Of a stretch of 52,123 nucleotides of DNA, positions 2,541-25,011 are shown piece by piece (the first letter of the stretch is position 1; each line of letters starts with the position of its first letter). The notes beneath the pieces were generated by a model. The model did not search any database. It was given only the letters and a program-made list of their open reading frames with translations, and was not told the origin of the DNA. This DNA is from Patescibacteria group bacterium (lineage in GTDB: Bacteria > Patescibacteriota > Minisyncoccia > Phycocordibacterales > WO2-35-19), in the NCBI GenBank assembly GCA_038065655.1, contig JBBTQO010000013.1:1-52123 (forward strand), given 5' to 3'. The position numbers and the translations under genes are program-made.

Positions 2541-4449
<1,909 letters not shown>

Positions 4450-4456
4450 AAAAAAT

Positions 4457-4497
4457 CTCTTATTTCTGCTATTATATTTCATATTATGAAAACAGCA
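4457..4497 (+). repeat. 41-bp direct repeat, copy 1 (promoter plus start codon)
   Basis: CTCTTATTTCTGCTATTATATTTCATATTATGAAAACAGCA; 3 mismatches to 5459-5499. Confidence 0.9.
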
Positions 4498-5445
4498 CTA
4501 GTATGCGGGGCCGGAGGATTTATAGGTAGTCATCTTGTAAAAAAACTTAAAAAAGAGAAGTTTTGGGTTAGGGGTATAGACCTGAAGATGCCCGAGTACA
4601 GCAAAAGCTCTGCCGACGAGTTCATCGTCGGCGACTTAAGAAAACCAGAAGTGTGCCAGAAAATTTTGAATAAGTCTTTTAACGAAGTGTACCAGTTGGC
4701 AGCTGATATGGGAGGTGCTGGGTATATTTTTACTGGGGAACATGATGCGTGTGTTATGCACAATTCAGCAACAATCAACCTTAACATTGCGCACTATGGA
4801 CAAAAAGCGGGAATCAAGAAAATTTTTTATTCTTCATCTGCTTGTATCTATCCAGCCGAAAACCAAACTGATCCAAATAACCCAAATTGCGCTGAAAATT
4901 CTGCCTATCCAGCTAACCCAGACAGCGAGTACGGGTGGGAAAAACTTTTTAGCGAGAGGATGTATTTATCTTTTTATAGAAATTACGGATTGCAGGTAAG
5001 AATTGCGCGCTTTCATAACATTTTTGGACCAGAGGGTACATGGAAAGGTGGTAAAGAAAAAGCTCCCGCCGCGATTTGTCGAAAAGTGGCAGAGACTCCA
5101 GAGAGCGGAGAAATAGAGATTTGGGGTGACGGCAAACAAACCAGGTCATTTCTATATATTGATGAATGTCTTAATGGCATCAGACATTTGATGGATTCCA
5201 ATTTTACAGGACCTGTAAATATCGGGTCAGAAGAAATGATATCCATAAACGATCTGGCGAAAATGATTATGAAAATTGCAGATAAAAAGTTAAAGATTAA
5301 ACACATAAAAGGCCCTTTGGGGGTTAGGGGCAGAAATTCAGACAACAAGCTGATTTTTGAAAAACTTGGGTGGAAACCGTCAAAACCCCTTATAGAAGGA
5401 ATAAAAAAAACTTACAAATGGATAGAGGAACAAATCTGTAAATAA
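4486..5445 (+). CDS. GDP-mannose 3',5'-epimerase-like extended SDR (copy 1)
   Basis: GAGGFIGSH, LAADMGG, SSACIYP, YGWEK, RFHNIFGPEGTWKGGKEKAPAAICRK, GVRGRNSDN match plant GME signatures. Confidence 0.85.
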   Translation: MKTALVCGAGGFIGSHLVKKLKKEKFWVRGIDLKMPEYSKSSADEFIVGDLRKPEVCQKILNKSFNEVYQLAADMGGAGYIFTGEHDACVMHNSATINLNIAHYGQKAGIKKIFYSSSACIYPAENQTDPNNPNCAENSAYPANPDSEYGWEKLFSERMYLSFYRNYGLQVRIARFHNIFGPEGTWKGGKEKAPAAICRKVAETPESGEIEIWGDGKQTRSFLYIDECLNGIRHLMDSNFTGPVNIGSEEMISINDLAKMIMKIADKKLKIKHIKGPLGVRGRNSDNKLIFEKLGWKPSKPLIEGIKKTYKWIEEQICK

Positions 5446-5458
5446 TAGTGGAAAAAAA

Positions 5459-5499
5459 CTCTTATTTCTGCTATTATATTTCAGATTATGGAAACAACA
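5459..5499 (+). repeat. 41-bp direct repeat, copy 2
   Basis: CTCTTATTTCTGCTATTATATTTCAGATTATGGAAACAACA; includes the wzm start codon. Confidence 0.9.
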
Positions 5500-6306
5500 G
5501 TCATAAGGCCTCGTAAAACTTTTAGTCTGAAAGACATTAAAGAGCTTTGGCAATATCGTGAGCTCTTATATTTCTTTGTCTGGCGAGATTTAAAAGTGCG
5601 TTATAAACAAACCTTTGTAGGAGTAGCGTGGGCGATATTTCAACCATTTATTACCATGGTGATTTTTTCCATATTTTTTGGCTCTCTCGCCAAAATGCCA
5701 TCCGATGGAGTACCCTATCCTATTTTTGTTTATGTTGGTCTTTTATTTTGGCAATTTTTTTCAACCGCTCTTTCAGACACCAGCAACACTTTAATAAGCA
5801 ATCAATCCATCATAACTAAAGTCTACTTTCCTAGACTGATTTTACCTATTTCAAGTGTTATGACAAAATTCGTAGATTTTTTAATTGCCACTTTAATATT
5901 GATCGGCCTCATGTTTTATTACGGATATATGCCCCACATTTCAGGACTTTTAATTTTACCATTATTGCTTCTTATTACTTTTATGGCTTCCGTTGGGCTT
6001 GGACTTTTCCTAGCTTCTATCAACGTCAAATACAGAGATGTTAGATACGCTTTGCCATTTTTTATTCAGATTATGCTATTTCTAACTCCAGTCATTTATC
6101 CCGCTTCTATTGCCGGAAAATATTCCTTCCTCTTGGCCATCAATCCAATGACCGGAGTTATCCAAAGCGCCAGAGCTGCCATCCTTGGTACCACCCCAAT
6201 CAATTGGTTACTCATAGAAATCTCATTTATAAGCACTTCAATATTGATGATATTAGGTATATATGTATTTAAGAAAACTGAAAGATATTTCGCTGATATT
6301 ATTTAA
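5488..6306 (+). CDS. wzm: Polysaccharide ABC transporter permease
   Basis: RDLKVRYKQT..G..W...QP, KVYFPR, YRDV, NPMTGVI; six TM segments. Confidence 0.93.
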   Translation: METTVIRPRKTFSLKDIKELWQYRELLYFFVWRDLKVRYKQTFVGVAWAIFQPFITMVIFSIFFGSLAKMPSDGVPYPIFVYVGLLFWQFFSTALSDTSNTLISNQSIITKVYFPRLILPISSVMTKFVDFLIATLILIGLMFYYGYMPHISGLLILPLLLLITFMASVGLGLFLASINVKYRDVRYALPFFIQIMLFLTPVIYPASIAGKYSFLLAINPMTGVIQSARAAILGTTPINWLLIEISFISTSILMILGIYVFKKTERYFADII

Positions 6307-6310
6307 ATTT

Positions 6311-7540
6311 ATGCATGATTCAAAACCCATCATTGAAATAAAAGGTATAGGGAAAAAATATAACATCACTCATCAAAGAGGTGGTTATGTTTCTTTGCGT
6401 GATGTTTTGATGAATATATTGAAATCTCCATTTTCTTTTTTAAAAACTAAAGCCAAACAAGTGGTCGGCCTTGAAAAAAAAGAAGATTTTTGGGCTCTTA
6501 AAGATGTTTCTTTTAATGTCCAAAGAGGAGAAGTGATAGGCATCATAGGATCAAATGGCGCTGGCAAATCAACCCTCCTTAAAATACTTTCTCAAATCAC
6601 TCCGCCAACCGAAGGAGAAATAATTTTACGAGGTCGAGTGGGTTCCCTTCTAGAAGTGGGTACAGGCTTTCATCCAGAGCTAACGGGTAGGGAAAATATA
6701 TTTTTAAATGGAGCGATTTTAGGGATGAAGAAAAAAGAAATCGCAGAAAAATTTGATGAGATAGTTGCGTTTGCTGGCATAGAAAAATTTTTGGATACGC
6801 CGGTCAAATATTATTCCAGCGGTATGTATGTTCGCTTAGCTTTCTCGGTGGCCGCTCATATGGAACCAGATATTCTAATCGTAGACGAAGTCCTCGCTGT
6901 CGGCGACGCTGAATTTCAAAAAAAATGTCTCGGTAAAATGGAAGAAGTGACTCAAAAAAATGGGAGGACAATTTTATTTGTTAGCCATAATATGGGGGCT
7001 ATCCGACAATTATGCGAAAAGACAATAGTTCTAAACAAAGGGTCAATAGTAGATTTTATAGAAACAGAAAAGGCCATAGATATATATCTAAGCAAGACAA
7101 AAAGTGAAAAAATTATAATCCCCCTAAAAAACACAAACCGTGAAGAATTCAGAATAAAAAAAATAGAATTTAAAAATGATACCAATAAACCCTGGATAGT
7201 AGAATGCTTTGAAAAAATCAAAATAGAGGTTATAATGGAAATCACAGAAAATATACCCAATTTTAGGTTTGGGATTGGTATTAATTCTCTTAGTGGAGAA
7301 AGGATATCCACCGTCCATAGCGACGAAAAAACTTTAGAAAAAGGAGAATACTTGGTGTCTATTGAATTGGAAAACAGACTCGTTCCCGGCCGTTATGAAT
7401 TAGGTTTAGGTGTATTAAACAGATACCAACTGCCGGGATTTAGTATATTAGAAGTTGAAAATAACAAAAACAATGACCATAAATGGTTTAATCCCGGATC
7501 AATTGATATAAAATCGGATTTTGTAATCAAAAAAAAATAA
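6311..7540 (+). CDS. wzt: Polysaccharide ABC transporter ATPase with C-terminal carbohydrate-binding (Wzt_C) extension
   Basis: GSNGAGKST, GFHPELTGRENI, YSSGM..RLAF, DEVLAVGD; likely start at 6311 after the wzm stop. Confidence 0.93.
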   Translation: MHDSKPIIEIKGIGKKYNITHQRGGYVSLRDVLMNILKSPFSFLKTKAKQVVGLEKKEDFWALKDVSFNVQRGEVIGIIGSNGAGKSTLLKILSQITPPTEGEIILRGRVGSLLEVGTGFHPELTGRENIFLNGAILGMKKKEIAEKFDEIVAFAGIEKFLDTPVKYYSSGMYVRLAFSVAAHMEPDILIVDEVLAVGDAEFQKKCLGKMEEVTQKNGRTILFVSHNMGAIRQLCEKTIVLNKGSIVDFIETEKAIDIYLSKTKSEKIIIPLKNTNREEFRIKKIEFKNDTNKPWIVECFEKIKIEVIMEITENIPNFRFGIGINSLSGERISTVHSDEKTLEKGEYLVSIELENRLVPGRYELGLGVLNRYQLPGFSILEVENNKNNDHKWFNPGSIDIKSDFVIKKK

Positions 7541-7544
7541 TATT

Positions 7545-8570
7545 ATGAAAAACAGAGTCGCCCGATTAGTTGAAATTGGTAAAATCGAGATCTTTGAAGA
7601 AGAGCTGCCTCCTTTGCAAAAAGATGAGGTTTTGGTGGCCATAAAATCAGTTGGGATATGCGGGTCCGATATTCATTATTTTTTAGAAGGAGGGTTAGGA
7701 TCATTTAAACAAAAACTTCCTATGGAGATGGGCCACGAACCTTCGGGAGTGGTTGTAGACTCTTTAGCTGACGGAGAATTTAATGAAAGAGACAGGGTTA
7801 CCATTGAACCGGGAAGAGCCTGTTTTTTTTGTAGCTGGTGCGTAAAGGGTAAACACAACCTATGCGAGAACGTTAAGTTTATGGGGGCAAATGCCCCAGG
7901 AGCGCTGGCAGATTACGTCATAGTACATAGGAGCCAGCTTGCAAAAATCCCCGCCAAAATGTCTTACAAGATGGCCGCCTTACTCGAGCCTCTCGGTATA
8001 GGTTTGCATGCCGCGAACTTAATCCAACCCAAGAACACCGAGAGCGTCGTCATCTTCGGGGCGGGACCGATTGGACTCTGTCTTATGAAGATCTTGCAGA
8101 AAGCTGGTATGAGTGAGATATATATGATTGACATCCTGCCATACCGCGTAAAATTTGCCGAAAAGATGGGCGCTACCAAGGCATTTCTGTTTCGAGACGC
8201 GATAGCTGAAATAAAAAAGTTAACAAATAATCGTGGTACAACATATACTTTTGATGCTGCGGGTGCCCAAGACTCTATTACGGCATGCGGTGAACTAGTA
8301 AGTGTGGGTGGAACCATTGGTCTTATTGGAATTCCAACAGATGACTTTATAAAATACAATCCTCACCGACTGCGAACAAAAGAAATCCGGATTCAAAATG
8401 TAAGACGCTCAAATCAGACCATGCACGACTGCGTCAAACTATTTTCAAACGACTTTGAATTGGAAAAAATAATTACCCATTCATTTGATTTTAAAGATGT
8501 TCAAAAAGGATTTGATCTGGTAAGTGCATTCAAGGGGAATGTAATTAAATGTGTTATCACCAATGACTAA
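7545..8570 (+). CDS. Zn-dependent medium-chain dehydrogenase (sorbitol/threonine dehydrogenase-like)
   Basis: GICGSD, GHE, CxxCxxCx7C structural Zn site, GAGPIG. Confidence 0.88.
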   Translation: MKNRVARLVEIGKIEIFEEELPPLQKDEVLVAIKSVGICGSDIHYFLEGGLGSFKQKLPMEMGHEPSGVVVDSLADGEFNERDRVTIEPGRACFFCSWCVKGKHNLCENVKFMGANAPGALADYVIVHRSQLAKIPAKMSYKMAALLEPLGIGLHAANLIQPKNTESVVIFGAGPIGLCLMKILQKAGMSEIYMIDILPYRVKFAEKMGATKAFLFRDAIAEIKKLTNNRGTTYTFDAAGAQDSITACGELVSVGGTIGLIGIPTDDFIKYNPHRLRTKEIRIQNVRRSNQTMHDCVKLFSNDFELEKIITHSFDFKDVQKGFDLVSAFKGNVIKCVITND

Positions 8571-9522
8571 ACCCACTTCATTTAACAAAAAACAAGCATA
8601 CAAATTACTCTATCGTGCTCGTCGTAGCGATGAAATGCTTGGAGAAGCTGTAAAGCAAGGGCATGTCCCACTCCCCATCCACCTCTCAATCGGTCAAGAA
8701 GCTGTCTCAGTCGGAGCATGTCTGGCATTAAAACCAAATGACATTGTATTTGGTACTTATCGTGGTCACGCACTCTATATAGCAAAAGGAGGAAATTTAA
8801 AAAAAATGTTTGCCGAACTTTATGGAAAAGCTACAGGCAGTGCTAAAGGTAAAGGGGGGTCAATGCATTTAATCGATGTGGGCGCGGGAGTTATGGGTAT
8901 GTCCGCAATCGTTGGCACAGGTATACCAAATGCGACCGGATATGCGCTCGGGATGCAATACCAAAAAAAAAGAAATGTTGTGGTTAATTTTTTCGGTGAT
9001 GGAGCTACCGAGGAAGGAGCTTTTCACGAGAGCCTAAATTTTGCCGCGCTTAAAAAACTCCCTATTATTTATATTTGCGAAAACAATAAGTATGCGATTA
9101 GTACGCATCAATCTATCCGCCAGTCAGAATTAAATATAGCCGTGCGTGCAAAGTCGTATGGGATTCGAGCAAAGGTAATCCAAGGGAATGATACACTTGC
9201 GATATATCAGGAGGTGAAGAAAGCTCGAGATGAAATACTTAAAAACAATTCAGGACCCATATTCTTTGAATGTATGACTTACCGATGGAGACAACACCTT
9301 GGTCCCAATGAAGACTTCGGACCCGGTGGCAGGGATATTAGAGAGGCCGAATGTTGGATAAAGAACGATGAACTTATACGCATAGGTAAACTCCTTCCAA
9401 TAAAAACCAAGCAGAAAATTGAATTGGTAGTTGAATCAGAGATAAAAAAAGCAATTCTCTTTGCAGAGAAGAGCCCCTATCCTGCTAAAAGAGATTTGTG
9501 GACTGATGTATTTGCACCATAA
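8563..9522 (+). CDS. TPP-dependent dehydrogenase E1 alpha-like subunit
   Basis: HLSIGQEA, YRGH, KGKGGSMH, GDG...ENN TPP-binding motif; ATG overlaps the upstream stop. Confidence 0.9.
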   Translation: MTKPTSFNKKQAYKLLYRARRSDEMLGEAVKQGHVPLPIHLSIGQEAVSVGACLALKPNDIVFGTYRGHALYIAKGGNLKKMFAELYGKATGSAKGKGGSMHLIDVGAGVMGMSAIVGTGIPNATGYALGMQYQKKRNVVVNFFGDGATEEGAFHESLNFAALKKLPIIYICENNKYAISTHQSIRQSELNIAVRAKSYGIRAKVIQGNDTLAIYQEVKKARDEILKNNSGPIFFECMTYRWRQHLGPNEDFGPGGRDIREAECWIKNDELIRIGKLLPIKTKQKIELVVESEIKKAILFAEKSPYPAKRDLWTDVFAP

Positions 9523-9527
9523 AAAAT

Positions 9528-10568
9528 ATGAAGCGTATTATTTCTTACACTGAAGCAATACTTGAAGCGACTGAACAAGAAATGATTCGGGATTCTTCTG
9601 TTATATTGCTTGGTCAAGGAGTCGATTATGACCGAGGACTCCTAGGTACCACGAAAGGTCTTGTAAATAAATTCGGGTTCAGACGCGTCTTTGATACCCC
9701 CCTTTCCGAAGATGGAATGACTGGTATTTCAATTGGCGCGGCGCTTGCTGGTTTACGACCAATACATACACATGTTCGCATGGATTTTCTGACTCTCACC
9801 ATGAATCAGCTTATAAATATCGCCGCCAAAGCTCGGTATATGTACGGAGGTCAAGTCAATGTCCCTTTGGTAATCCGTACACTTATAGGAGATGGCTGGG
9901 GAGCTCAACATTCGCAGGGTCTTCATTCACTTTTTGTAAATATTCCAGGTCTTAAAATTGTTGTTCCATCTACCCCCCACGATGCAAAAGGACTTCTTAT
10001 TCAAGCAATTCGCGACAACAATCCTGTTATTTTTGTTGAACATTTTAAATTATATGCCGAGGAAGGATATGTGCCTGAAAAGCCGTATGCAATTCCCTTT
10101 GGAAAAGCCGTTGTTCGAAAAAAAGGCACCGACATAACTTTGGTTGGAATTTCATATATGAATGTGGAGTGTCTTAACGCCGCCCATTACCTTGAAAAAG
10201 TAGGGGTAAGCGCTGAAGTTATTGACCCAGTCTCGCTCGCCCCACTGGATATTGACACAATTATCAAGTCTGTCCAAAAAACTGGGAAGCTTATAGTGGC
10301 TGACACAGCATGGACATCGTGTGGTGTTTCAGCAGAAATCGTGGCTCGGGTTGCTGAATATTTTGGAGCAAGAAAACAGATATCGCTAGAGCGCATTGGT
10401 TTTGCCCCCGTTCCCTCGCCGAATACTCCGGCCCTTGAAAAATATTTTTATCCGAACGCCGAAAGTATTGCTCGTACGGCGTTAAAAATGACGCACGGAA
10501 AGGGAGCAAAGATTACTTTTGCTACTCATAAACTAGACAAGAAGTCCGGAATGACAGAGAAGGTATGA
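9528..10568 (+). CDS. TPP-dependent dehydrogenase E1 beta-like subunit
   Basis: DTPLSE, GLRPI, QHSQ, PGLKIVVPSTP.DAKGLL, DNNPVIFVEH. Confidence 0.9.
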   Translation: MKRIISYTEAILEATEQEMIRDSSVILLGQGVDYDRGLLGTTKGLVNKFGFRRVFDTPLSEDGMTGISIGAALAGLRPIHTHVRMDFLTLTMNQLINIAAKARYMYGGQVNVPLVIRTLIGDGWGAQHSQGLHSLFVNIPGLKIVVPSTPHDAKGLLIQAIRDNNPVIFVEHFKLYAEEGYVPEKPYAIPFGKAVVRKKGTDITLVGISYMNVECLNAAHYLEKVGVSAEVIDPVSLAPLDIDTIIKSVQKTGKLIVADTAWTSCGVSAEIVARVAEYFGARKQISLERIGFAPVPSPNTPALEKYFYPNAESIARTALKMTHGKGAKITFATHKLDKKSGMTEKV

Positions 10569-10588
10569 GTATGCTAGTATAAAACCTC

Positions 10589-11725
10589 ATGAAGCTTGCA
10601 ATTATTTCTACAACCATATATGGCGAAAAAGGGTATCTTCTCTATGACCGCTTAGCGAAGAAGAGTAAATTTGACAAAATTAGTTTTTTTATTGCAGGTG
10701 ATAAAAAGTCGCCACCTTTTGATACTTCAGCCTTTACTTGCGACATCGAATATTTAACCCCCAAAGCGCAGGGACGCTTTGCCTCGAGCGAAGCAATCGG
10801 ATGGAATAAGCCTGCACGACGCAATATCGCCCTCTTGCGTGCCATGGAGACAAACCCGGATTTTATACTCACAATCGATGATGACAACATCCCAAGTGAG
10901 AATTATTTTGATCAGTGGCATAAAGTAATTACTACTCCAGCAAAAAAACATGTAATAGGAGTCAAGGATATCGAACACGCGCACTGGCATAACTACCTAA
11001 AAGCCACAGACTCTGAGATTGAACTGTATACTCGAGGGTTCCCTATCCCATTTCGATACAAGGACTCAACCAAGGTTGTAAAAGCGCCACACTCTATATC
11101 TCCAGAAAAAATCGGAGTCTTCCAGGGTATTTCTCTTGGCGATCCAGATATTGATGCAAAAACGCGCATCGTCTATCCCAAACAAACACCTCTCTCTGTC
11201 GTCCATGAAAAAAATTATGTTCTCCAACATATATGGTCTCCCTATAACTCACAAAACACGATGTTCGCAAAAAAACTCTTCCCGCTCGTCTTTATGTGGT
11301 CAACCGCAGGCAGATCTGAAGACATTTATGCGTCCTATGTGTGGCAAAAGTTCCTGTTCAATAACAATATGTATGCGCATATTGGCGATGCAGTAAATTT
11401 TCAAGAGCGTGGTAAAAGAAACGATTTGCGTGACCTAACTCTTGAAATAGAGACCTATCTAAAATCGCACGAGGTATGGGAAGAAATTAACAAGATTGAA
11501 GAAAAAGACCCGCTTGAATTCATAGGTGCGCTAATCCGTTCGGAGCACGAGATTATTGTTCGTGAAAGGGCTTTTATGCATGCTTTTCATAATGATTTAG
11601 AGCGTATCCTCTTTAAACCTGTTGCTTTGAGGGAACGGCATAACGAGCTACACCCTCAAGTATCGAGTCGAGGTCGTCGCGCAGTTCCCAGCCGAGCAAC
11701 TCTTTCGAATCAGAAGAGTCGGTAG
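10589..11725 (+). CDS. STELLO/DUF288-like (GT75/RGP-related) putative glycosyltransferase
   Basis: RRNIALL, IDDDN, RGFP, GDPDIDA, NSQNT, GRSEDIYASY motifs. Confidence 0.65.
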   Translation: MKLAIISTTIYGEKGYLLYDRLAKKSKFDKISFFIAGDKKSPPFDTSAFTCDIEYLTPKAQGRFASSEAIGWNKPARRNIALLRAMETNPDFILTIDDDNIPSENYFDQWHKVITTPAKKHVIGVKDIEHAHWHNYLKATDSEIELYTRGFPIPFRYKDSTKVVKAPHSISPEKIGVFQGISLGDPDIDAKTRIVYPKQTPLSVVHEKNYVLQHIWSPYNSQNTMFAKKLFPLVFMWSTAGRSEDIYASYVWQKFLFNNNMYAHIGDAVNFQERGKRNDLRDLTLEIETYLKSHEVWEEINKIEEKDPLEFIGALIRSEHEIIVRERAFMHAFHNDLERILFKPVALRERHNELHPQVSSRGRRAVPSRATLSNQKSR

Positions 11726-12506
11726 TTAAGGAGAATGTCTGGACTGTTTTTGGCACATAGACTATCTTCCCCCCAAATTTCTTCACTACTTTCTCTGCCA
11801 AATCTTGCATTGAAATACGGTTTCCGGTAAGAAAAAATGGGTGGTACCCTCTCTCCGCCGTGGCACTCCACTCGACTGCTCTCCAAATACCGCGAGCCAC
11901 ATCAGCCACCGAGACATATTCGCGTTCGTGGAGCCCGTCCCCGAAAAGCTGAATTTCTTTACCTGATAAAATGTCTTGAACAAACTTAATTGGAGGGGTG
12001 GGTATTTTAGTGCCCTCCCCGACTACTATTGGAGGCCGGAGTACCACAATAGACATGTCTGTTTCTTGTTTAGCAAATTGCTGGAGTGCATATTCTGCCG
12101 CGGCCTTCGAAGCGCTGTATGGATGCTTCGGGGCAAATACAGAGAAGCGTCCATGGTGCTCGCCTTTTTTGTTTTCACCGTGGACAACGGTGGAACTTGT
12201 GAAAATGTAGCTCTTAGCCCCCGCCTCATGTGCCGCATATGCAACATTCAAGCTCCCCATGGTATTCGTTTTAAACATTTCTCGTACCGGAAGAGATAAA
12301 AGAAGCGTTCCTAACAAGGCCGAGAGATTGACGACCATATCCGGTTTAATTTCTTTAAGCTTCTCCGTGAACGATTCGGGTTTCCGAACATCTGCGTCGG
12401 GACGATTAAATAAAAAAATCTCATGTCCTCTAGGAGCAATTCGCACGAATGTTTTGCCGATGAATCCTCTGGCTCCGAATACTGCCACGCGCACATTTTT
12501 AGACAT
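11613..12506 (-). CDS. NAD-dependent nucleotide-sugar epimerase/dehydratase/reductase (extended SDR)
   Basis: GARGFIG, YSASK, GDGLHEREYVSV; start at 12506 lies 6 nt after TGgTATAAT. Confidence 0.85.
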   Translation of the reverse strand: MSKNVRVAVFGARGFIGKTFVRIAPRGHEIFLFNRPDADVRKPESFTEKLKEIKPDMVVNLSALLGTLLLSLPVREMFKTNTMGSLNVAYAAHEAGAKSYIFTSSTVVHGENKKGEHHGRFSVFAPKHPYSASKAAAEYALQQFAKQETDMSIVVLRPPIVVGEGTKIPTPPIKFVQDILSGKEIQLFGDGLHEREYVSVADVARGIWRAVEWSATAERGYHPFFLTGNRISMQDLAEKVVKKFGGKIVYVPKTVQTFSLTTDSSDSKELLGWELRDDLDSILEGVARYAVPSKQQV

Positions 12507-15876: not shown

Positions 15877-16845
15877 ATGCAAAAAACAGCATTAGTTTGC
15901 GGAGCGGGAGGTTTTATAGGAAGTCATCTGGTTAAAAAACTTAAAAAAGAGAATTTTTGGGTTAGAGGTGTGGATCTCAAAAAGCCAGAGTATAGCGAAA
16001 GTGTGGCGGACGAATTTTTAGTCGGCGATTTGCGAGATCAAGAGGTGTGTAAAAAAATACTAGATAAGGCATATGACGAAGTCTACCAGCTAGCCGCTGA
16101 TATGGGAGGAGCTGGTTATATCTTTACGGGAGAACACGATGCTGATGTGATGCATAACTCCGCTACTATAAATCTCAATATTGCTTGTTACGGACAAAAG
16201 GCCAATATAAAGAAGATATTTTATTCTTCTTCTGCTTGCATATACCCCGCCCGCAACCAGACTGACCCAGAGAATCCAAACTGTAGCGAAGAATCCGCCT
16301 ACCCCGCTGACCCTGACAGCGAATACGGCTGGGAAAAATTGTTTAGTGAAAGATTATACCTTTCTTTTCATAGAAATTATAAAATGAATGTAAGAATTGC
16401 GAGATTTCATAATATTTTTGGTCCAGAAGGTACATGGCGCGGAGGCAAAGAGAAGGCACCCGCCGCCATTTGCAGGAAAGTAGCAGAAGCGAAAGAAGGA
16501 GGAGAAATAGAGATATGGGGAGATGGCGAACAAACACGTTCATTCCTCTATGTAGATGAGTGTCTTGAGGGAATACGCAGACTAATGGATTCAGATTTTA
16601 CGGGACCAGTAAACATAGGGTCAGAAGAGAGTATATCTATAAACAATTTAGCAAAAATGGCTATGGACATAGCAGGCAAAAAATTAAACATCAAACATAT
16701 TCTGGGACCCTTGGGAGTACGGGGAAGGAATTCTGACAACAGGCTTATAAAGGAGAAACTTGACTGGACTCCAGAGAAGTCACTCAAAGAAGGTATGACA
16801 AAAACTTATAAATGGATTGGGACACAAGTGATTAGTTCTAGATAA
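15877..16845 (+). CDS. GDP-mannose 3',5'-epimerase-like extended SDR (copy 2)
   Basis: Same signatures as 4486-5445; 50 of the first 59 aligned residues identical by hand count. Confidence 0.85.
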   Translation: MQKTALVCGAGGFIGSHLVKKLKKENFWVRGVDLKKPEYSESVADEFLVGDLRDQEVCKKILDKAYDEVYQLAADMGGAGYIFTGEHDADVMHNSATINLNIACYGQKANIKKIFYSSSACIYPARNQTDPENPNCSEESAYPADPDSEYGWEKLFSERLYLSFHRNYKMNVRIARFHNIFGPEGTWRGGKEKAPAAICRKVAEAKEGGEIEIWGDGEQTRSFLYVDECLEGIRRLMDSDFTGPVNIGSEESISINNLAKMAMDIAGKKLNIKHILGPLGVRGRNSDNRLIKEKLDWTPEKSLKEGMTKTYKWIGTQVISSR

Positions 16846-19717: not shown

Positions 19718-20695
19718 ATGGCAAAAAAAGCTTTAATAACTGGTGTAACTGGTCAAGATGGTGCTTACTTGGCCCAATTTTTATTAAATAAAGGATATGA
19801 AGTTTTCGGGCTGGTAAGAAGGGCAGTAAATAGAAATTTTGAAAATTTAGAGTATTTAGGTATAGAGAATAAAATAGATTTAGTTGATGGAGATTTGACA
19901 GATGAAGCTTCGTTGATTAATGCGGTAAAAAGAATCTATCCGGATGAAATTTATAATTTAGCCGCCCAATCGTTTGTTGGCACTTCTTGGGATCAGCCAG
20001 TGGTAACTTGCGAAATAAATGGCATGGGTGTGTTGAAGTTGCTTAACGCAATAAAAATCTGTTGTCCTACGACAAAATTTTATCAGGCTTCAACTAGTGA
20101 AATGTTCGGTAATGTCAATACAAACGACACTCAAGGTGAAGAGACGCCTTTTCATCCTAGGAGCCCTTATGCTATCTCAAAACTTTTTGCCTATTGGATA
20201 ACTATTAATTACAGGGAGAGTAACAATATGTTTTGTTCTAACGGCATACTTTTTAATCACGAATCACCAATTAGGGGAAAAGAGTTTGTCTCTAGAAAAA
20301 TTACCGATGGTGTGGCTCGCATAAAACTTGGTTTAGCCAAAGAAATAAGATTGGGTAATTTAGATAGTCGCAGAGATTGGGGTTTTGCTGGAGACTATGT
20401 TGAAGCTATGTGGTTGATGTTGCAGCAAAAAAATCCAAATGATTTTATTATTTCCACAGGAAAAACGAATAGTATTAGGGATTTCCTGAATTTAGCTTTT
20501 AAGTGTGTTGGTATAAATGATTGGCAACCATATGTAAAAATAGACCCGCGATATAAAAGGCCGGCTGAATTGTTCACCTTGCAAGGAAAAAACAACAAAG
20601 CTAAAAAGATTTTGAACTGGAAACCGAAAGTATCTTTTGAGGAATTAGTTAAAATGATGGTTGTGGCCGATTTAAAAAGATTGAGCAAGAATTAA
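19718..20695 (+). CDS. gmd: GDP-mannose 4,6-dehydratase (second, divergent copy)
   Basis: ITGVTGQDGAYLA, AQSFV, YQASTSEMFG, SPYAISK, NHESPIRG.EFV. Confidence 0.93.
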   Translation: MAKKALITGVTGQDGAYLAQFLLNKGYEVFGLVRRAVNRNFENLEYLGIENKIDLVDGDLTDEASLINAVKRIYPDEIYNLAAQSFVGTSWDQPVVTCEINGMGVLKLLNAIKICCPTTKFYQASTSEMFGNVNTNDTQGEETPFHPRSPYAISKLFAYWITINYRESNNMFCSNGILFNHESPIRGKEFVSRKITDGVARIKLGLAKEIRLGNLDSRRDWGFAGDYVEAMWLMLQQKNPNDFIISTGKTNSIRDFLNLAFKCVGINDWQPYVKIDPRYKRPAELFTLQGKNNKAKKILNWKPKVSFEELVKMMVVADLKRLSKN

Positions 20696-20759: not shown

Positions 20760-20792
20760 AAAAAAAGCACCCCTACTTGGTAGCAGGGATGC
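20760..20792 (-). terminator. Intrinsic terminator overlapping the radical SAM stop codon
   Basis: 11-bp stem GCAUCCCUGCU/AGUAGGGGUGC followed by U7. Confidence 0.8.
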
Positions 20793-22329
20793 GAACGCTT
20801 ACGCGCAGAATGTTAGAAGGCAAGGGTCCCATCTGGCCCATTGAATGCTCATAGCGAGTAGACGGAGCACCAACATCGTACGGGATAGCAAGTCTATCCC
20901 GAACTTCCCGTTCCACCGCTCCGCGAATTGACACCAAGTCCTCTCTAGAGAGACCTTCTGTGAAAACGTAGGATTGGTAACCTCCATCCGGATCACCCTT
21001 ATAGTAGTCAGCGACTTCGGTAAAGTCGACTTCTACCTGAAATAGGGTGTCTCCCGTCTTTTGGTAAGTGTAGACCCAAATCCCAGGCCATTTCTGATGC
21101 GGAACAGCCAAATCGTAGTACGGTGTTCCCGGATAGCAAGTGATTATGGTCAGATCAAATGCTTCCGGCTTAACTTCAAGGAGCCAGTCTTTTGTCTCAC
21201 CTACAGTCACCATGCTTTCTCCGGGGTGGCCGATAGACATCAAAGCTTTCACTTTGAGACCATACTTTTTGGCGATTTCTACACAGCGAGTATTGTCTTC
21301 CCGCGTTGCTTTCTTGTTGATGGCTCTGAGAATACTCGGTGAACCTGACTCAAACCCCGTTAGGATCCATCGGAACCCCGCCTCATACATGGCCTCAGCC
21401 TGACTCTCGGTAAAGAGTTCAGCTTTGATGAAGCCTCGCAGACGCCATTCCACCCCCAAATCCTTTTGAGTTTTAGAGATAAGCTCCATGAGCTCGAGCA
21501 TCTTCGGATTAACATTAAGCTCGTCGTCATAAAACATAAAGCCGGAGCAGTCCATGGTCCTATGCATGTGCAACATCTCAGCAACAATGCTCTCTGAAGT
21601 ACGTGTGCGGACCCGGCGGAGCATAGGTGATTCCCTCCCACCACAGAACCCACAGTCAAATGGACAGCCGAGTTGGGCTATGAGCGAGTATGCTCGTCTA
21701 CCGTCGATTGAGTAGTGGTAACTTCCCACATCAACGAGTTCACGGGCGGGAAACGGTAGAGCAGTGAGTTTGTGGCTGGTTAGGAAAAGTGACGATTTTG
21801 GATCATCCGCATCCACTATCTTCGGAGCACCTGTTTTGTAGGCCTCAAAAATTGCTTCCTCACCATCTCCTGCCACTAAACAGTCAAATAATTTTTCGAG
21901 TGAACTCATGGCATCTACAGCCCGGCCGATTCTGCCTTCCTTGCGCTCACGCTTGAAGGCGGCATTCACAAGAGTTATGTGCGGACCACCCAGAATGATG
22001 CGAGCACCTGAACGTACAGCACGTATAGCCCTTGCAATTTTGGTTGCAGATGGAAGTTGAGGTGTTGTAGCAGTGATGCCAAAACACTTCGCCGTAGAAG
22101 ATTGTGTATGATCTGCCACGGCTTCCGTGAAATTACTGATGCCAGAGAGGTCCAGTACTTCTACCGGCACCCTCGCTTGTTCAAGTACAGCGGCAATGCG
22201 TAGGACTCCAAGTGTCATAAACACTCGCTCATCCATAAGAAAAACTGACGGAGGGATGATGAGACAAACCGGTCCCATCTTCCATTCGTGTTGAAGTAGA
22301 GACGGTAATACAATTTGTGTCAATCCCAT
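20773..22329 (-). CDS. B12-binding-domain radical SAM protein
   Basis: LGVLRIAAVL, GITATT, LGGPH, GDGEE, CPFDCGFC, YDDELN, GFESGS; likely start 22329 after SD GAAAGGAAGG. Confidence 0.88.
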   Translation of the reverse strand: MGLTQIVLPSLLQHEWKMGPVCLIIPPSVFLMDERVFMTLGVLRIAAVLEQARVPVEVLDLSGISNFTEAVADHTQSSTAKCFGITATTPQLPSATKIARAIRAVRSGARIILGGPHITLVNAAFKRERKEGRIGRAVDAMSSLEKLFDCLVAGDGEEAIFEAYKTGAPKIVDADDPKSSLFLTSHKLTALPFPARELVDVGSYHYSIDGRRAYSLIAQLGCPFDCGFCGGRESPMLRRVRTRTSESIVAEMLHMHRTMDCSGFMFYDDELNVNPKMLELMELISKTQKDLGVEWRLRGFIKAELFTESQAEAMYEAGFRWILTGFESGSPSILRAINKKATREDNTRCVEIAKKYGLKVKALMSIGHPGESMVTVGETKDWLLEVKPEAFDLTIITCYPGTPYYDLAVPHQKWPGIWVYTYQKTGDTLFQVEVDFTEVADYYKGDPDGGYQSYVFTEGLSREDLVSIRGAVEREVRDRLAIPYDVGAPSTRYEHSMGQMGPLPSNILRVSVRIPATK

Positions 22330-22573
22330 AAAAACCTTCCTTTCATTCCATAACATGTCGAAGAACTATCTTCTTTATTAATAATACACGAAATATGCAG
22401 ATATGGTCTATTGATTTATTTGGAAAAGTATTTTTTAAAACGGTAATTGCATATGCCAAATAATATCTGAAATATTTTGAATACTGGGGTAGTGATGAAA
22501 TCAAACTTATTTTTACCAAAAAACCGCACTATTTTTTTTAGAAATAGGGCACTCTACCGACAGATCCAGATTT

Positions 22574-23335: not shown

Positions 23336-23549
23336 CATTTATAGCTTGAGCCGGGCAACCGACGCTCGCCTCTTTTGCTTTAGTCAATTGTTCAGCTGTT
23401 AATTCAACTGAAACTGCCTCAACCAAATTGCCATCAGATTTTAGCTTACCTTTAAAATTTTCCTCATCATATTTAAATAGTTCTGGAAAACAATTCATAC
23501 AAAAACTGCAACCGATACATTCTTTTTGATTAATAGTTATTTTAGGCAT
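23322..23549 (-). CDS. Single-cluster ferredoxin
   Basis: CIGCSFC...CP near the N-terminus and CPAQAI at the C-terminus; 75 aa. Confidence 0.85.
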   Translation of the reverse strand: MPKITINQKECIGCSFCMNCFPELFKYDEENFKGKLKSDGNLVEAVSVELTAEQLTKAKEASVGCPAQAINVIET

Positions 23550-25011
23550 GAATTGATTTTAATTTATTTTTTAACCAAACAATAGTATAAATTTCAATCG
23601 GCCAACGCCAAAAATTATTTTTAAACCTAATAATAATAAAAAACCTAAAAAATTTGATGGCCAAATGCCGAATCACACTCCTGAAAGATTTGTGGTTTAA
23701 ATCTTTCAATTTTTTACTATACCAAGCAAAAGGACTGAGTTCGTGAATAATTTCATATTCACTCTGATTTTTAAGCCAAGGCAAATATGCTTTACCCCAA
23801 AAATAACTGCCCCATGCTCCTAAACTCTGCGGTGGATTGAAACCTAAAGTTAAAGCTTTTATAAATAAAGCAGTGCCCGGATAAGGAATATAAATCCACA
23901 AAGGATAGACCGAGGCTTGGCTATAAATTTTTTGAATTTTCAATATTAAATCTATAGTTTTCTGTCTTTCTAGTATGGTCTCCGTCGGCCAACCAATCAC
24001 AAATGAAAGCATCAATTTTAGATCCAAAGATTTAGCCACCTCAACCGCTTTGATGGTTTGTTCCACCGTAATACCTTTTTGGATAACTTCTTTCAAAACT
24101 CTGTTAGAGCCACTCTCACAACCCACCCGCAATTCACAAAGTCCACTGGTTTTTAAACTTTGTAAAAATTTAAAATCAAAATAATCTACTCTAGCATCAA
24201 CCGAATATTTGATTTTCAAATTTTGATTATTTATTAATCTAGCAAACTCTAAGGCTCGCGCACGATCTACCACAAAATTGTCGTCATGAATAATAAAATA
24301 ATTTATATTATAATTTTTATGCAAAAATTCTAATTCCGCAAAAGCTTTTTCGGCCGTTTTGGCTCGCCATTTCTTTTTATTAAAGTTCAAATTGTAACAA
24401 AAACTACAAGGGAAAGGACAACCTTTGCTAGTATAAAAATTGATAACTCGTTCGTCCGAATTAGGTGACAAAACCTTAACATACCGCTCTACTTCAATTA
24501 AATCCCAAGCTGGCATAGGTAATTCGTTCATATCCAAAAAATCATCAGTAATTTTATTGGTTCTTAATTTCCCATTTTCTTTCCAACCCAAATTATCTAT
24601 TTCTTTTAGGGAAGTATTGTTTTCTAAAGCTAAGAGCAGAGATTTGAGAGGTTTTTCCCCTTCACTTACTATCACAAAATCAATCAAGGGATTTGCTAAA
24701 GTTTGTTCAGGGAAAAAGGTAGGGTGGATACCACCAGTTATTATATTTATACTTGGGTCGATAGTTTTTATTTTTTGACTAACCGCAATTACTTGCAAAA
24801 TACAACTACCAGTTAGCATACTAAACCCAACAGCTAAAGGTTTCTCTTTTTTAATCAGGTTATAAAGTTCGTTTTCTGAAGTCAAACGTAAATCCACAAT
24901 CTTCACATCAAAATCAGCCCAAATATAAGCAGCCAAACTCATTAAACCTAACGGGGCATAAGTGGTAGAATTTAAACCATTTTCAGGTTGTACTAAAATA
25001 ATTTTTTTCAT
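23542..25011 (-). CDS. B12-binding-domain radical SAM protein (class B methylase-like)
   Basis: PLGLMSLAA, GGIHPT, SEGE, GCPFPCSFC, HDDNF, GCESGS. Confidence 0.9.
   Translation of the reverse strand: MKKIILVQPENGLNSTTYAPLGLMSLAAYIWADFDVKIVDLRLTSENELYNLIKKEKPLAVGFSMLTGSCILQVIAVSQKIKTIDPSINIITGGIHPTFFPEQTLANPLIDFVIVSEGEKPLKSLLLALENNTSLKEIDNLGWKENGKLRTNKITDDFLDMNELPMPAWDLIEVERYVKVLSPNSDERVINFYTSKGCPFPCSFCYNLNFNKKKWRAKTAEKAFAELEFLHKNYNINYFIIHDDNFVVDRARALEFARLINNQNLKIKYSVDARVDYFDFKFLQSLKTSGLCELRVGCESGSNRVLKEVIQKGITVEQTIKAVEVAKSLDLKLMLSFVIGWPTETILERQKTIDLILKIQKIYSQASVYPLWIYIPYPGTALFIKALTLGFNPPQSLGAWGSYFWGKAYLPWLKNQSEYEIIHELSPFAWYSKKLKDLNHKSFRSVIRHLAIKFFRFFIIIRFKNNFWRWPIEIYTIVWLKNKLKSIHA

What the first reader, a model, noticed from the sequence alone, without database searches (positions are those of the whole stretch)
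7545..12506. Probable branched-chain sugar module: E1alpha/E1beta without E2/E3 inside the glycan locus
A Zn-dehydrogenase, TPP E1alpha, E1beta and a STELLO-like GT are tightly coupled directly after wzt, with a convergent SDR. This block is visibly GC-richer than the block that follows. No lipoyl E2 or E3 gene is in the window. TPP enzymes are known to transfer a C2 unit from pyruvate to NDP-4-keto sugars (YerE for yersiniose; PDH-like AviB1/AviB2 for avilamycin eurekanate). The dehydrogenase could reduce the acetyl branch. The inferred product is a C-branched, possibly GDP-linked sugar in a CPR surface glycan.
Basis: partly seen in the sequence, partly recalled or inferred. Interest (0 to 1): 0.7.

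Follow-up and report, generated by a model that had tools for sequence, protein, structure and literature searches.

The report
Stand-alone thiamine enzyme sugar-branching cassette
A five-gene block in the surface-sugar locus of a tiny Saccharibacteria-like bacterium carries a pyruvate-dehydrogenase-like thiamine enzyme with no dehydrogenase partners; it most likely adds a two-carbon branch to a GDP-sugar, chemistry known so far mainly from antibiotic sugars.

Summary
Directly after wzm/wzt lie a Zn-alcohol dehydrogenase, E1alpha, E1beta and a fourth gene, tightly packed, with a convergent SDR. The block has 43.1% GC against 36.9% for the genome.

The genome has no E2, lipoyl or E3 domain, and none of 60 relatives has an E2. 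Only this genome among the 61 carries the E1.

In a 77-row tree, a 99/92 split separates all 15 E2-adjacent E1alpha genes from 51 sugar-locus ones. An AU test rejects joining the window's clade to the canonical group (p = 0.0065).

The window's clade is nested among operons reading kinase, 4,6-dehydratase, E1alpha, E1beta, ColD-type 3-dehydratase. That is the yersiniose logic. An E1 pair from an actinomycete natural-product cluster falls in the same E2-free group.

One correction: the "STELLO-like GT" is a homologue of MtdL, a GT75 GDP-sugar pyranose-furanose mutase (TM 0.76; profile E = 7e-38).

Best reading: an E2-independent ThDP carboligase of the alphaKADH2 kind adds an acetyl branch from pyruvate to a GDP-keto-sugar, and the dehydrogenase reduces it. 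The acceptor carbon and the mutase's place in the pathway are unresolved. This is a new variant of a known kind, and no biochemistry has been done.

The parts
2541..3536 (+). gmd, GDP-mannose 4,6-dehydratase. Probable source of GDP-4-keto-6-deoxy-D-mannose, the candidate acceptor.
   Evidence: PF16363, 451.9 bits. A second copy, 51% identical, lies at 19718-20695.
3520..4449 (+). fcl-like GDP-L-fucose synthase. Would supply GDP-L-fucose, a known substrate of MtdL-type mutases.
   Evidence: NF047922 GDPFucSynFcl, 287.5 bits, below the 500 cut-off. Epimerase domain, 193 bits.
5488..7540 (+). wzm/wzt ABC exporter for the glycan. wzt carries a Wzt_C carbohydrate-binding domain.
   Evidence: PF01061, PF00005 and PF14524.
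7545..8570 (+). Zn-dependent medium-chain dehydrogenase of the polyol/threonine/butanediol-dehydrogenase type. Proposed reductase of the acetyl branch to 1-hydroxyethyl, or oxidase that makes the acceptor ketone.
   Evidence: PF08240 + PF00107. Best NCBIfam hit is threonine 3-dehydrogenase at 188 bits, below cut-off. PDB matches: 5vm2 185 bits, then xylitol, threonine, sorbitol and (R,R)-butanediol dehydrogenases. Read from the sequence: Cys39, His64-Glu65, four structural Cys (93, 96, 99, 107), GAGPIG, Asp196.
8563..9522 (+). E1alpha, the ThDP-binding subunit. The ORF is open from GTG 8551; the likely start is ATG 8563.
   Evidence: PF00676, 202.7 bits. TIGR03182 scores 272, below the 393.85 cut-off. 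GDG...NN motif, His44 and His249 are kept. Tree and AU test. Group signature residues P42, R190, D255.
9528..10568 (+). E1beta, with pyrimidine-binding and C-terminal domains and a ~22-aa C-terminal extension ending GMTEKV.
   Evidence: PF02779 + PF02780. NF006667 scores 296, below the 321 cut-off. 240 bits to Geobacillus E1beta, with the cofactor-activating Glu and active-site His kept. Tail comparison.
10589..11725 (+). GT75-type NDP-sugar pyranose-furanose mutase homologue (MtdL/Hyg20-like).
   Evidence: AF2 model with pLDDT 89.2. Foldseek to MtdL 7xpr/7xps: TM 0.75-0.76, E 1e-22. Profile against MtdL: E 7e-38. DXD (D97-99), R149, D187, S221, Q222, R242 and D245 are kept; His287 becomes Q272.
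11613..12506 (-). Convergent extended SDR of reductase/epimerase type with no 4,6-dehydratase signature. It belongs to the conserved core ADH-E1alpha-E1beta-[mutase]-SDR.
   Evidence: PF01370 121.8 bits and RmlD_sub_bind 52.6 bits. GxxGxxG and YxxxK are present. Orthologues 60-63% identical occupy the same position in L089 and L090.

Best explanation
The E1alpha/E1beta pair is an E2- and E3-independent ThDP carboligase of the alphaKADH2 kind. This is the class of AviB1/AviB2, Plm8/Plm9 (also called Pau11/Pau12) and KbDH-alpha/beta.

Proposed steps:
1. The enzyme decarboxylates a 2-oxoacid, most likely pyruvate, to hydroxyethyl-ThDP.
2. Instead of passing the unit to lipoamide, it adds it to the carbonyl of a nucleotide-activated keto-sugar. 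The product is a tertiary alcohol carrying an acetyl branch.
3. The most likely acceptor here is GDP-4-keto-6-deoxy-D-mannose made by the Gmd enzymes of the same locus.
4. The co-translated Zn-dehydrogenase, or else the convergent SDR, reduces the acetyl carbonyl to a 1-hydroxyethyl branch.
5. The MtdL-like mutase interconverts pyranose and furanose forms of a GDP-sugar in the same pathway.
6. The product is built into the Wzm/Wzt-exported glycan.

Shown: gene content, absence of E2/E3/lipoyl, phylogenetic separation from E2-linked E1 enzymes, conserved catalytic residues, conserved synteny, the fold of the fourth protein.

Inferred: donor, acceptor, branch position, order of steps, which reductase acts on the branch.

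The cassette looks horizontally acquired, from its GC content and its absence from 60 relatives.
For: 1. No partner for oxidative chemistry. PF00198, PF00364 and PF02852 are absent from the complete genome. E2 is absent from all 61 genomes of the order sampled.

2. Phylogeny. In the careful tree, a 99/92 split puts all 15 E2-adjacent E1alpha genes on one side and all 51 sugar-locus ones on the other. E2-adjacent and sugar-gene-adjacent loci are mutually exclusive. The AU test rejects window clade plus canonical group (delta lnL 75.8, p = 0.0065).

3. Outgroup operons. The window's clade is nested (100/96) in a clade whose standard operon is [GmhA]-HddA-like kinase, 4,6-dehydratase-like SDR, E1alpha, E1beta, ColD-type 3-dehydratase. 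The dehydratase assignment rests on 204 bits to ColD 2gms. His stands at the His188 position in every copy 1-2 genes from an E1 gene in the window's major clade (the 25-row group). This is the enzyme set that makes the 3,6-dideoxy-4-keto acceptor in yersiniose synthesis.

4. Link to the known family. An E1 pair inside an actinomycete natural-product cluster (NDP-hexose 2,3-dehydratase, iterative PKS, KASIII) falls in the same E2-free group.

5. Catalytic machinery is intact. GDG...NN and both active-site His in alpha; the cofactor Glu and His in beta.

6. Group-specific changes. Signature residues sit in the two active-site-channel loops (R190 and D255 at 100%). E1beta carries a C-terminal extension where canonical enzymes bind E2.

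7. Conserved core. ADH-E1alpha-E1beta-[mutase]-SDR recurs in L008, L089 and L090. The ADH belongs to the subfamily that interconverts acyloin/1-hydroxyethyl groups.

8. Precedent from papers. Plm8/9 add a pyruvate-derived C2 chain at C4 (PMC4802897). The acetyl branch is then reduced by a separate ketoreductase (PMC4753412). KbDH-alpha/beta does ketone carboligation with pyruvate in vitro (PMC12247030).
Against: - No enzyme of the window's clade, nor of the wider clade of sugar-locus E1 pairs it is nested in, has been assayed. The function is assigned by context and analogy.
- The window lacks the ColD-type dehydratase and heptose genes of the outgroup operons, so the acceptor may differ.
- Close relatives L008 and L089 show no gmd within about 20 kb.
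- The mutase is linked to this E1 subclade (window, L008, L089, L148, L002). A 4-C-branched pyranose with a tertiary C4-OH is an awkward substrate for ring contraction.
- Two reductases are present but only one reduction is needed in the simple scheme.
- The genome has no PF00483 nucleotidyltransferase, so the source of GDP-mannose is unexplained.
- The natural-product anchor (L130) is identified only by its gene context. It joins the other major sugar-locus clade (the one rich in acetolactate-synthase-like ThDP genes), not the window's.
Confidence: 0.62

Rival explanations
1. Same enzyme class but a different acceptor: the mutase acts first.
1. GDP-L-fucose (from Gmd + Fcl) or GDP-L-galactose (from the GME-like SDRs) is converted to the furanose by the MtdL-like mutase.
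2. The ADH or the SDR oxidises the now exocyclic C5-OH (or C6-OH) to a carbonyl.
3. The E1 pair adds the C2 unit there.
4. The second reductase finishes the product.
The result would be a GDP-activated side-chain-branched or chain-extended eight-carbon furanose.
For: - The mutase homologue keeps the catalytic residues and GDP-type base contacts of MtdL.
- It is linked to exactly this E1 subclade: the window, L008, L089, L148 and L002 all lie in one 7-row clade.
- Matching contig lengths in the two homologue lists point to about ten further shared contigs.
- This scheme gives all five genes of the module a role.
- MtdL converts GDP-L-Fucp to GDP-L-Fucf (PMC9937993).
- From my own knowledge: hygromycin A carries a 5-keto-L-fucofuranose made with the mutase Hyg20 and a dehydrogenase.
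- The outgroup's heptose substrates also carry an exocyclic diol side chain.
Against: - L090 has ADH-E1alpha-E1beta-SDR without the mutase.
- Two of three randomly checked mutase homologues lie in loci with no E1 pair.
- The outgroup operons (4,6-dehydratase + ColD-type dehydratase) point to a ring C4 ketone.
- The Mn2+ ligand His287 of MtdL is Gln here, so mutase activity itself is unproven.
Confidence: 0.2
2. The pair acts like DXP synthase or transketolase on sugar phosphates, not on nucleotide sugars. It would make an unusual (deoxy)ketose phosphate. The Zn-ADH would reduce this, as TarJ does, to an alditol phosphate for a teichoic-acid-like substituent.
For: - E1alpha shows weak DXP_synthase_N and Transketolase_N similarity.
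- The ADH resembles polyol-phosphate dehydrogenases such as galactitol-1-phosphate 5-dehydrogenase.
- Some relatives have a small cytidylyltransferase (L089), TagF-like Glyphos_transf genes (L002) or CTP_transf_3 (L148) nearby.
Against: - The window has no cytidylyltransferase or glycerophosphotransferase.
- The genome has no PF00483 enzyme.
- The immediate, translationally coupled partners in the outgroup are nucleotide-sugar enzymes: a 4,6-dehydratase and a ColD-type dehydratase.
- The genome has an ordinary transketolase elsewhere.
Confidence: 0.07
3. The pair is a plain non-oxidative 2-oxoacid decarboxylase, or an acyloin-cleaving enzyme of the acetoin type, acting on a sugar-borne 2-oxoacid or acyloin side chain. 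It would shorten or remodel the sugar rather than branch it. The aldehyde formed would then be reduced by the ADH.
For: - Decarboxylation is the native first half-reaction of E1 enzymes.
- Some pipelines annotate homologues as acetoin:DCPIP oxidoreductase.
- An ADH next to the pair could reduce a released aldehyde.
Against: - No enzyme that would oxidise a sugar side chain to a 2-oxoacid is present in the module.
- Cleavage next to a ring-oxygen-bearing carbon is chemically unfavourable (my inference).
- All characterised E2-free relatives are carboligases (PMC12247030).
Confidence: 0.06
4. The pair is a remnant or moonlighting part of ordinary pyruvate or acetoin catabolism, and lies in the glycan locus by chance.
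For: The closest curated models are the PDH E1 subunits.
Against: - Scores fall below the curated cut-offs.
- No E2, E3 or lipoyl domain exists in this genome or its relatives.
- The tree and AU test separate the pair from E2-linked enzymes.
- Synteny with sugar genes is conserved across phyla.
- The genes are intact and translationally coupled to wzt and the ADH.
Confidence: 0.03

Closest known systems
alphaKADH2-type sugar C-branching enzymes of actinomycete antibiotics: AviB1/AviB2 (avilamycin eurekanate), Plm8/Plm9 = Pau11/Pau12 (paulomycose), KbDH-alpha/beta (kibdelomycin), and the aldgarose and kosinostatin enzymes
   Same: - Two-subunit PDH-E1-like ThDP enzyme.
- No E2/E3 partner.
- Encoded among NDP-sugar 4,6-dehydratase, epimerase and reductase genes.
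- A separate ketoreductase acts on the acetyl branch.
- A natural-product-cluster E1 pair (L130) falls in the same E2-free group of the tree.
   Different: - The context is a Wzm/Wzt-exported cell-surface glycan locus of a 0.6-Mb Saccharibacteria-like genome, not an antibiotic cluster.
- The sugar is probably GDP-linked rather than dTDP-linked.
- The partners are a Zn-ADH and a GT75 mutase.
- E1beta has its own C-terminal tail (GMTEKV).
- The best match among 401 sampled Actinomycetes genomes is only 44% identical.
- The named enzymes themselves could not be fetched for direct comparison.
Heptose/ColD-type E1alpha-beta cassette: kinase, 4,6-dehydratase, E1alpha, E1beta, ColD-like 3-dehydratase. 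It occurs in many phyla and, as far as I could find, has not been characterised.
   Same: - E1alpha is 55-60% identical.
- The window's clade is nested inside this clade.
- It is E2-free, and the same signature residues are present.
   Different: - The window has no ColD-type dehydratase, GmhA or HddA anywhere in its genome.
- It has ADH, mutase and SDR instead.
- The E1beta tail lacks the FxGPF end.
YerE (yersiniose A) and YerE-like enzymes (ErwE; MMAR_2332 for caryophyllose)
   Same: - Proposed reaction: a 2-oxoacid-derived acyl anion is added to the C4 ketone of a nucleotide-activated deoxy sugar destined for a cell-surface polysaccharide.
- The branch is then reduced to 1-hydroxyethyl.
   Different: - YerE is a single-chain enzyme of the acetolactate-synthase-like decarboxylase superfamily (PF02776/PF00205/PF02775) and acts on CDP-sugars.
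- The window enzyme is a split E1alpha/beta of the 2-oxoacid dehydrogenase superfamily.
- It works like YerE but is not a member of that family.
MtdL (A201A pathway) and Hyg20 (hygromycin A): GT75 GDP-sugar pyranose-furanose mutases. This comparison is for the fourth gene.
   Same: - Same fold (TM 0.76).
- DXD motif, nucleophilic Arg, Asp195/Asp260, Arg257 and Ser228/Gln229 equivalents are kept.
- GDP-type base contacts (Thr, Asp) are kept.
   Different: - Only 22-23% identity.
- The Mn2+ ligand His287 is Gln, His292 is Arg, and the sugar-contacting Asp87 is Pro.
- There is a disordered C-terminal tail that overlaps the convergent SDR gene.
- It sits in a glycan locus next to a ThDP enzyme.
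Canonical PDH, BCKDH and acetoin dehydrogenase E1 (alpha2beta2)
   Same: - Same fold and domains, ThDP motif and catalytic His/Glu residues.
- 138 bits to human E1alpha and 240 bits to Geobacillus E1beta.
   Different: - No E2, E3 or lipoyl domain.
- Scores fall below the curated family cut-offs.
- It lies on a separate branch of the tree.
- The active-site-channel loops are altered, and E1beta is extended at the C-terminus.

Membership tests
alphaKADH2-type sugar C-branching E1alpha/beta (AviB1/B2, Plm8/9, KbDH) | Separate E1alpha (E1_dh) and E1beta (Transket_pyr + Transketolase_C) subunits with an intact ThDP motif and catalytic residues | tested here: met
   Domains. GDG...NN, His44 and His249. 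Beta-subunit Glu and His.
alphaKADH2-type sugar C-branching E1alpha/beta (AviB1/B2, Plm8/9, KbDH) | No E2/E3/lipoyl partner in the cluster or the genome | tested here: met
   for the own genome; 0 of 61 relatives have E2.
alphaKADH2-type sugar C-branching E1alpha/beta (AviB1/B2, Plm8/9, KbDH) | Encoded with nucleotide-sugar genes that can provide a keto-sugar acceptor | tested here: met
   Two gmd genes, fcl-like and SDR genes in the window. A 4,6-dehydratase and a ColD-type dehydratase stand next to the E1 genes in the outgroup.
alphaKADH2-type sugar C-branching E1alpha/beta (AviB1/B2, Plm8/9, KbDH) | Groups phylogenetically with natural-product branching enzymes and apart from E2-linked E1 | tested here: inconclusive
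   Separation from E2-linked E1 is clear (99/92; AU p = 0.0065). The only natural-product representative is L130, identified by context. It lies in the same 51-row group but joins the other major sugar-locus clade (the one rich in acetolactate-synthase-like ThDP genes). Sequences of AviB1, Plm8 and KbDH were not available.
alphaKADH2-type sugar C-branching E1alpha/beta (AviB1/B2, Plm8/9, KbDH) | Pyruvate-dependent transfer of an acetyl unit to a sugar ketone | not testable with these tools
   Needs an enzyme assay.
Canonical PDH/BCKDH/acetoin dehydrogenase E1 | Works with a lipoylated E2 and an E3 | tested here: not met
Canonical PDH/BCKDH/acetoin dehydrogenase E1 | Reaches the curated equivalog score | tested here: not met
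   TIGR03182: 272.1, below 393.85. NF006667: 296, below 321.
Canonical PDH/BCKDH/acetoin dehydrogenase E1 | Clusters with E2-adjacent E1alpha in a tree | tested here: not met
GT75 NDP-pyranose mutase (MtdL/Hyg20/plant RGP-UAM), for ORF 10589-11725 | GT-A + core + helix fold of MtdL | tested here: met
   Model pLDDT 89.2. TM 0.75-0.76, E 1e-22. Profile E 7e-38.
GT75 NDP-pyranose mutase (MtdL/Hyg20/plant RGP-UAM), for ORF 10589-11725 | DXD motif, nucleophilic Arg159, Asp195, Asp260, Arg257, Gln229 | tested here: met
   D97-D99, R149, D187, D245, R242 and Q222 are invariant or nearly so in 35 homologues.
GT75 NDP-pyranose mutase (MtdL/Hyg20/plant RGP-UAM), for ORF 10589-11725 | His287 as Mn2+ ligand | tested here: not met
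   The aligned residue is Gln272, nearly invariant in the family. I therefore call it an MtdL-like homologue, not a proven mutase.
GT75 NDP-pyranose mutase (MtdL/Hyg20/plant RGP-UAM), for ORF 10589-11725 | Interconverts NDP-pyranose and NDP-furanose | not testable with these tools
   Needs an assay.
STELLO glycosyltransferases (PF03385) | Matches the family model above its cut-off | tested here: not met
   The window protein has no hit even at E <= 10. The L002 homologue scores 16.3 bits, below 27.8, over 46 residues only.
YerE-like ThDP lyases (decarboxylase superfamily) | Single chain with TPP_enzyme_N/M/C domains | tested here: not met
   The window enzyme has the E1_dh / Transket_pyr architecture. 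Acetolactate-synthase-like genes occur in other E1 loci (cluster 1), not in the window.

The most novel reading that the evidence does not exclude
The ADH-E1alpha-E1beta-mutase-SDR cassette may make a GDP-activated eight-carbon furanose. In this reading a hexofuranose has its exocyclic side chain oxidised and then branched or extended by a pyruvate-derived C2 unit. No such sugar is known from any glycan.

More broadly, E2-free E1alpha/beta enzymes are credited in the literature mainly to antibiotic pathways. They would instead be a common tool of cell-envelope glycan synthesis across many phyla, mobile enough to be acquired by a single Saccharibacteria lineage.
Probability: 0.2. Interest if true: 0.75.

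Novelty: new variant of a known kind. Interest (0 to 1): 0.56.

Why it matters
A 2025 review (PMC12247030) assigns ThDP-dependent sugar branching in cell-envelope glycans to YerE-like enzymes. It assigns the E1alpha/beta (alphaKADH2) type mainly to antibiotic pathways, and notes that no alphaKADH2 structure exists.

This locus, with its many relatives, indicates that the alphaKADH2 type is also used for surface glycans. That includes an ultra-small episymbiont-type bacterium whose surface is its interface with a host cell.

The cassette is compact, appears mobile, and has clear sequence signatures. These are the separate tree branch, R190/D255 in E1alpha and the E1beta tail, all of which could improve annotation of genes now mislabelled 'pyruvate/acetoin dehydrogenase'.

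It also offers new ketone-accepting carboligases for making tertiary alcohols. It predicts an undescribed branched, possibly furanose, sugar.

Tried and rejected
- Canonical PDH or acetoin dehydrogenase. Rejected: no E2, E3 or lipoyl domain; below curated cut-offs; tree and AU test against it.
- STELLO-type glycosyltransferase for the fourth gene. Rejected after the Pfam scan and the fold and profile searches.
- The 'DegT' genes next to E1beta in relatives as aminotransferases of the branch ketone. Rejected: they are ColD-type, with His in place of the Schiff-base Lys.
- Obligatory coupling of mutase and E1 pair. Not upheld: L090 lacks the mutase, and two of three sampled mutase homologues lack a nearby E1 pair.
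- Fetching named natural-product enzymes (AviB1, Plm8, KbDH). No tool gave their sequences. A scan of 401 Actinomycetes genomes gave mostly E2-linked or fused E1 genes, plus two sugar-type loci (L129, L130).
- Literature searches for E1 genes in O-antigen, capsule or heptose clusters. Nothing relevant turned up.
- An orthologous Zn-ADH in the second sugar-locus clade. ADHs are there (L033, L061), but at only 24-28% identity, so they were recruited independently and count as weak support only.
- A polyol-phosphate/CDP route. Considered because of cytidylyltransferase and TagF-like genes in some relatives. The window and genome lack such genes.

Full report
**What is there.** The window is contig C13 of a 603-kb, 21-contig genome rated 100% complete. 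Its closest E1alpha relative in a named genome is from an uncultured Saccharibacteria MAG, at 75% identity. Almost the whole window is a glycan locus:
- a Wzy_C/TPR protein, gmd, an fcl-like gene, a GME-like SDR, and wzm/wzt;
- then the finding's block;
- then glycosyltransferases, FkbM and other methyltransferases, a GT11 fusion, a second GME-like SDR, a second gmd, and two B12-radical SAM genes.

The block itself contains five genes:
- Zn-ADH, 7545-8570;
- E1alpha, ATG 8563 (open from GTG 8551) to 9522;
- E1beta, 9528-10568;
- a 378-aa ORF, 10589-11725;
- a convergent SDR, 11613-12506.

The spacers are 4, -8, 5 and 20 nt, so the four plus-strand genes are probably co-translated with wzt.

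The block has 43.1% GC against 36.9% for the genome. No other 5-kb window of the genome is as GC-rich. The genome has no 2-oxoacid_dh, Biotin_lipoyl or Pyr_redox_dim domain, while control genomes give hits. It has a single E1_dh gene. Among 61 genomes of the same genus, family and order, only this one has the E1alpha gene, and none has an E2. With the GC shift, this suggests the cassette was acquired horizontally.

**The E1 pair is not a canonical dehydrogenase component.** Both subunits score below the curated PDH cut-offs. I took 80 E1alpha loci from one-genome-per-species contigs, plus loci from metagenome assemblies and an Actinomycetes sample. I then marked each by its neighbours.
- Loci with an adjacent E2 have no sugar genes, and loci with sugar genes have no E2.
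- In the careful maximum-likelihood tree of 77 E1alpha sequences, a branch with 99/92 support puts all 15 E2-adjacent genes in one group of 26. All sugar-locus genes fall in the other group of 51.
- Forcing the window's six-member clade together with the canonical group costs 75.8 log-likelihood units (AU p = 0.0065).

**What the relatives say about the chemistry.** The window groups (100/99) with L089, L090, L008, L088 and L148, with L002 as sister. This set is nested (100/96) in a 27-row clade. The usual operon of that clade reads [GmhA], HddA-like kinase, 4,6-dehydratase-like SDR, E1alpha, E1beta, 'DegT'.
- The 'DegT' protein matches ColD, the GDP-4-keto-6-deoxymannose 3-dehydratase, at 204 bits. 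The best aminotransferase reaches 126 bits.
- Every copy within two genes of an E1 gene in the window's major clade (the 25-row group) has His where ColD has His188 and aminotransferases have Lys.
- A 4,6-dehydratase plus a 3-dehydratase makes a 3,6-dideoxy-4-keto nucleotide sugar. That is the acceptor YerE uses in yersiniose synthesis (PMC12247030).

The E1 pair sits between these two enzymes, so a ThDP-dependent addition to the C4 ketone is the natural reading for that clade. By descent it is also the natural reading for the window's enzyme.

**Link to the known family.** Papers describe PDH-E1-like pairs that add a pyruvate-derived two-carbon chain to deoxysugars of antibiotics:
- Plm8/9 (PMC4802897);
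- AviB1/B2 and Pau11/12, with a separate ketoreductase, Pau7, for the branch (PMC4753412);
- KbDH-alpha/beta, shown in vitro (PMC12247030).

I could not obtain those sequences. One Actinomycetes locus, L130, is clearly a natural-product cluster, with an NDP-hexose 2,3-dehydratase, KASIII, an iterative type I PKS and an aromatic hydroxylase. Its E1alpha lies in the 51-row E2-free group, and its E1beta ends in a variant of the FxGPF tail.

**Sequence features.**
- Catalytic equipment is intact: GDG...NN, His44 and His249 (human His63 and His263), and the beta-subunit Glu and His.
- The E2-free group differs from canonical enzymes at P42, Y76, F164, R190, P252, D255 and G259 of E1alpha. R190 and D255 are present in all 51 rows. 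Most of these lie in the two loops that line the active-site channel in PDH E1. That placement is my inference from the alignment to human E1alpha.
- E1beta of the sugar-locus clades carries a ~25-residue C-terminal extension ending FxGPF, which E2-linked enzymes lack. In the window's subclade the extension ends GM(T/V)(E/D)KV instead. From my own knowledge, the C-terminus of E1beta in Geobacillus PDH is part of the E2-binding site.

**The fourth gene.** It has no Pfam or NCBIfam hit.
- An AlphaFold model built from 35 homologues (pLDDT 89.2) matches MtdL with TM 0.75-0.76 and E = 1e-22, then rice UDP-arabinopyranose mutase. Ordinary GT-A transferases follow far behind.
- A sequence profile finds MtdL at E = 7e-38.
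- Against the MtdL structure paper (PMC9937993), the DXD motif, the nucleophilic Arg159 and Asp195, Ser228, Gln229, Arg257 and Asp260 are all kept.
- The GDP-type base contacts Thr13 and Asp40 are also kept.
- The Mn2+ ligand His287 is Gln, His292 is Arg and Asp87 is Pro.

It is therefore best described as an MtdL-like GDP-sugar pyranose-furanose mutase homologue of unproven activity, not a transferase. It is linked to this E1 subclade (window, L008, L089, L148, L002). The link is not obligatory.

**The two reductases.**
- The ADH has full catalytic and structural zinc sites and an Asp that suggests NAD(H) use.
- Its nearest characterised relatives are xylitol, threonine, sorbitol and (R,R)-butanediol dehydrogenases. 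These enzymes interconvert a 1-hydroxyethyl or vicinal-diol carbon and the ketone, which fits reduction of an acetyl branch.
- The SDR has the Ser/Tyr/Lys triad and no dehydratase signature.
- ADH-E1alpha-E1beta-SDR is the conserved core (L089, L090, L008).

**Most likely mechanism (confidence 0.62).** The proposed steps are:
1. The E1 pair decarboxylates pyruvate to hydroxyethyl-ThDP.
2. It attacks a GDP-keto-sugar, probably GDP-4-keto-6-deoxy-mannose from Gmd.
3. One reductase turns the acetyl branch into 1-hydroxyethyl.
4. The mutase and the other reductase adjust ring form or stereochemistry.
5. The sugar enters the ABC-exported glycan.

The main rival (0.2) keeps the enzyme class but lets the mutase act first, so that the ketone attacked is on the exocyclic side chain of a GDP-hexofuranose. 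Sugar-phosphate chemistry, plain decarboxylation and a catabolic remnant are each unlikely.

**Open problems.**
- The genome has no PF00483 nucleotidyltransferase, so the origin of GDP-mannose is unclear.
- Close relatives lack gmd near the cassette.
- Nothing has been tested at the bench.

Earlier notes of this scan on other genomes describe the heptose/ColD cassette and the FxGPF tail. I had reached the same points independently and treat those notes as agreement, not as evidence.

**Verdict.** This is a real, well-delimited cassette. It is a new variant of a known enzyme kind in a new biological setting.

Noticed in passing
whole genome (G000): No PF00483 nucleotidyltransferase (ManC, RmlA or GalU type) is detectable anywhere in the 100%-complete genome, although the window has two gmd genes and many GDP-sugar enzymes. 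The source of GDP-mannose is unexplained. It could be import from a host, a divergent enzyme or an assembly gap.
   Followed up: partly
window 11613-11725; also L089 13044-13156: The 3' ends of the mutase-like gene and the convergent SDR overlap by 113 nt, and the same overlap occurs in a relative. The mutase's last ~23 residues are predicted disordered (pLDDT below 50). More distant homologues of 338-350 aa lack this tail, so it may be a read-through of the SDR's antisense strand.
   Followed up: partly
E1beta C-termini in L002-L087: Both major sugar-locus clades in the E1alpha tree have E1beta subunits with a ~25-aa C-terminal extension ending in a conserved FxGPF. E2-linked enzymes have none. 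The window's subclade has a different conserved end, GM(T/V)(E/D)KV, and L088 and L148 have no tail.
   Followed up: yes
L088 9196-18751: An E1alpha 69% identical to the window's lies in a different setting: a short-chain dehydrogenase, a carboxylic-acid-reductase-like A-PCP-R protein, a radical SAM/SPASM enzyme, an EryCIII-like glycosyltransferase and a Zn-ADH. This looks like a small-molecule glycoside cluster rather than a glycan locus.
   Followed up: no
L048, L052, L068, L070, L039 and others (14 loci): Acetolactate-synthase-like ThDP enzymes (the YerE architecture, one fused to a methyltransferase) often sit in the same loci as E1alpha/beta pairs of the other major sugar-locus clade (not the window's). 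Some glycan loci therefore carry two different ThDP carboligase types.
   Followed up: no
window 20773-22356 (-) and 23542-25011 (-): The same glycan locus holds two B12-binding radical SAM genes. B12-rSAM genes also recur near E1alpha/beta pairs in relatives (L008, L010, L014, L018, L027, L045, L072).
   Followed up: no
window 4486-5445 and 15877-16845: Two paralogous SDRs match GDP-L-fucose synthase (Fcl) and heptose-epimerase models only weakly, far below their cut-offs. If they make GDP-L-galactose, that is the natural substrate reported for MtdL-type mutases (from my own knowledge of the A201A pathway).
   Followed up: no
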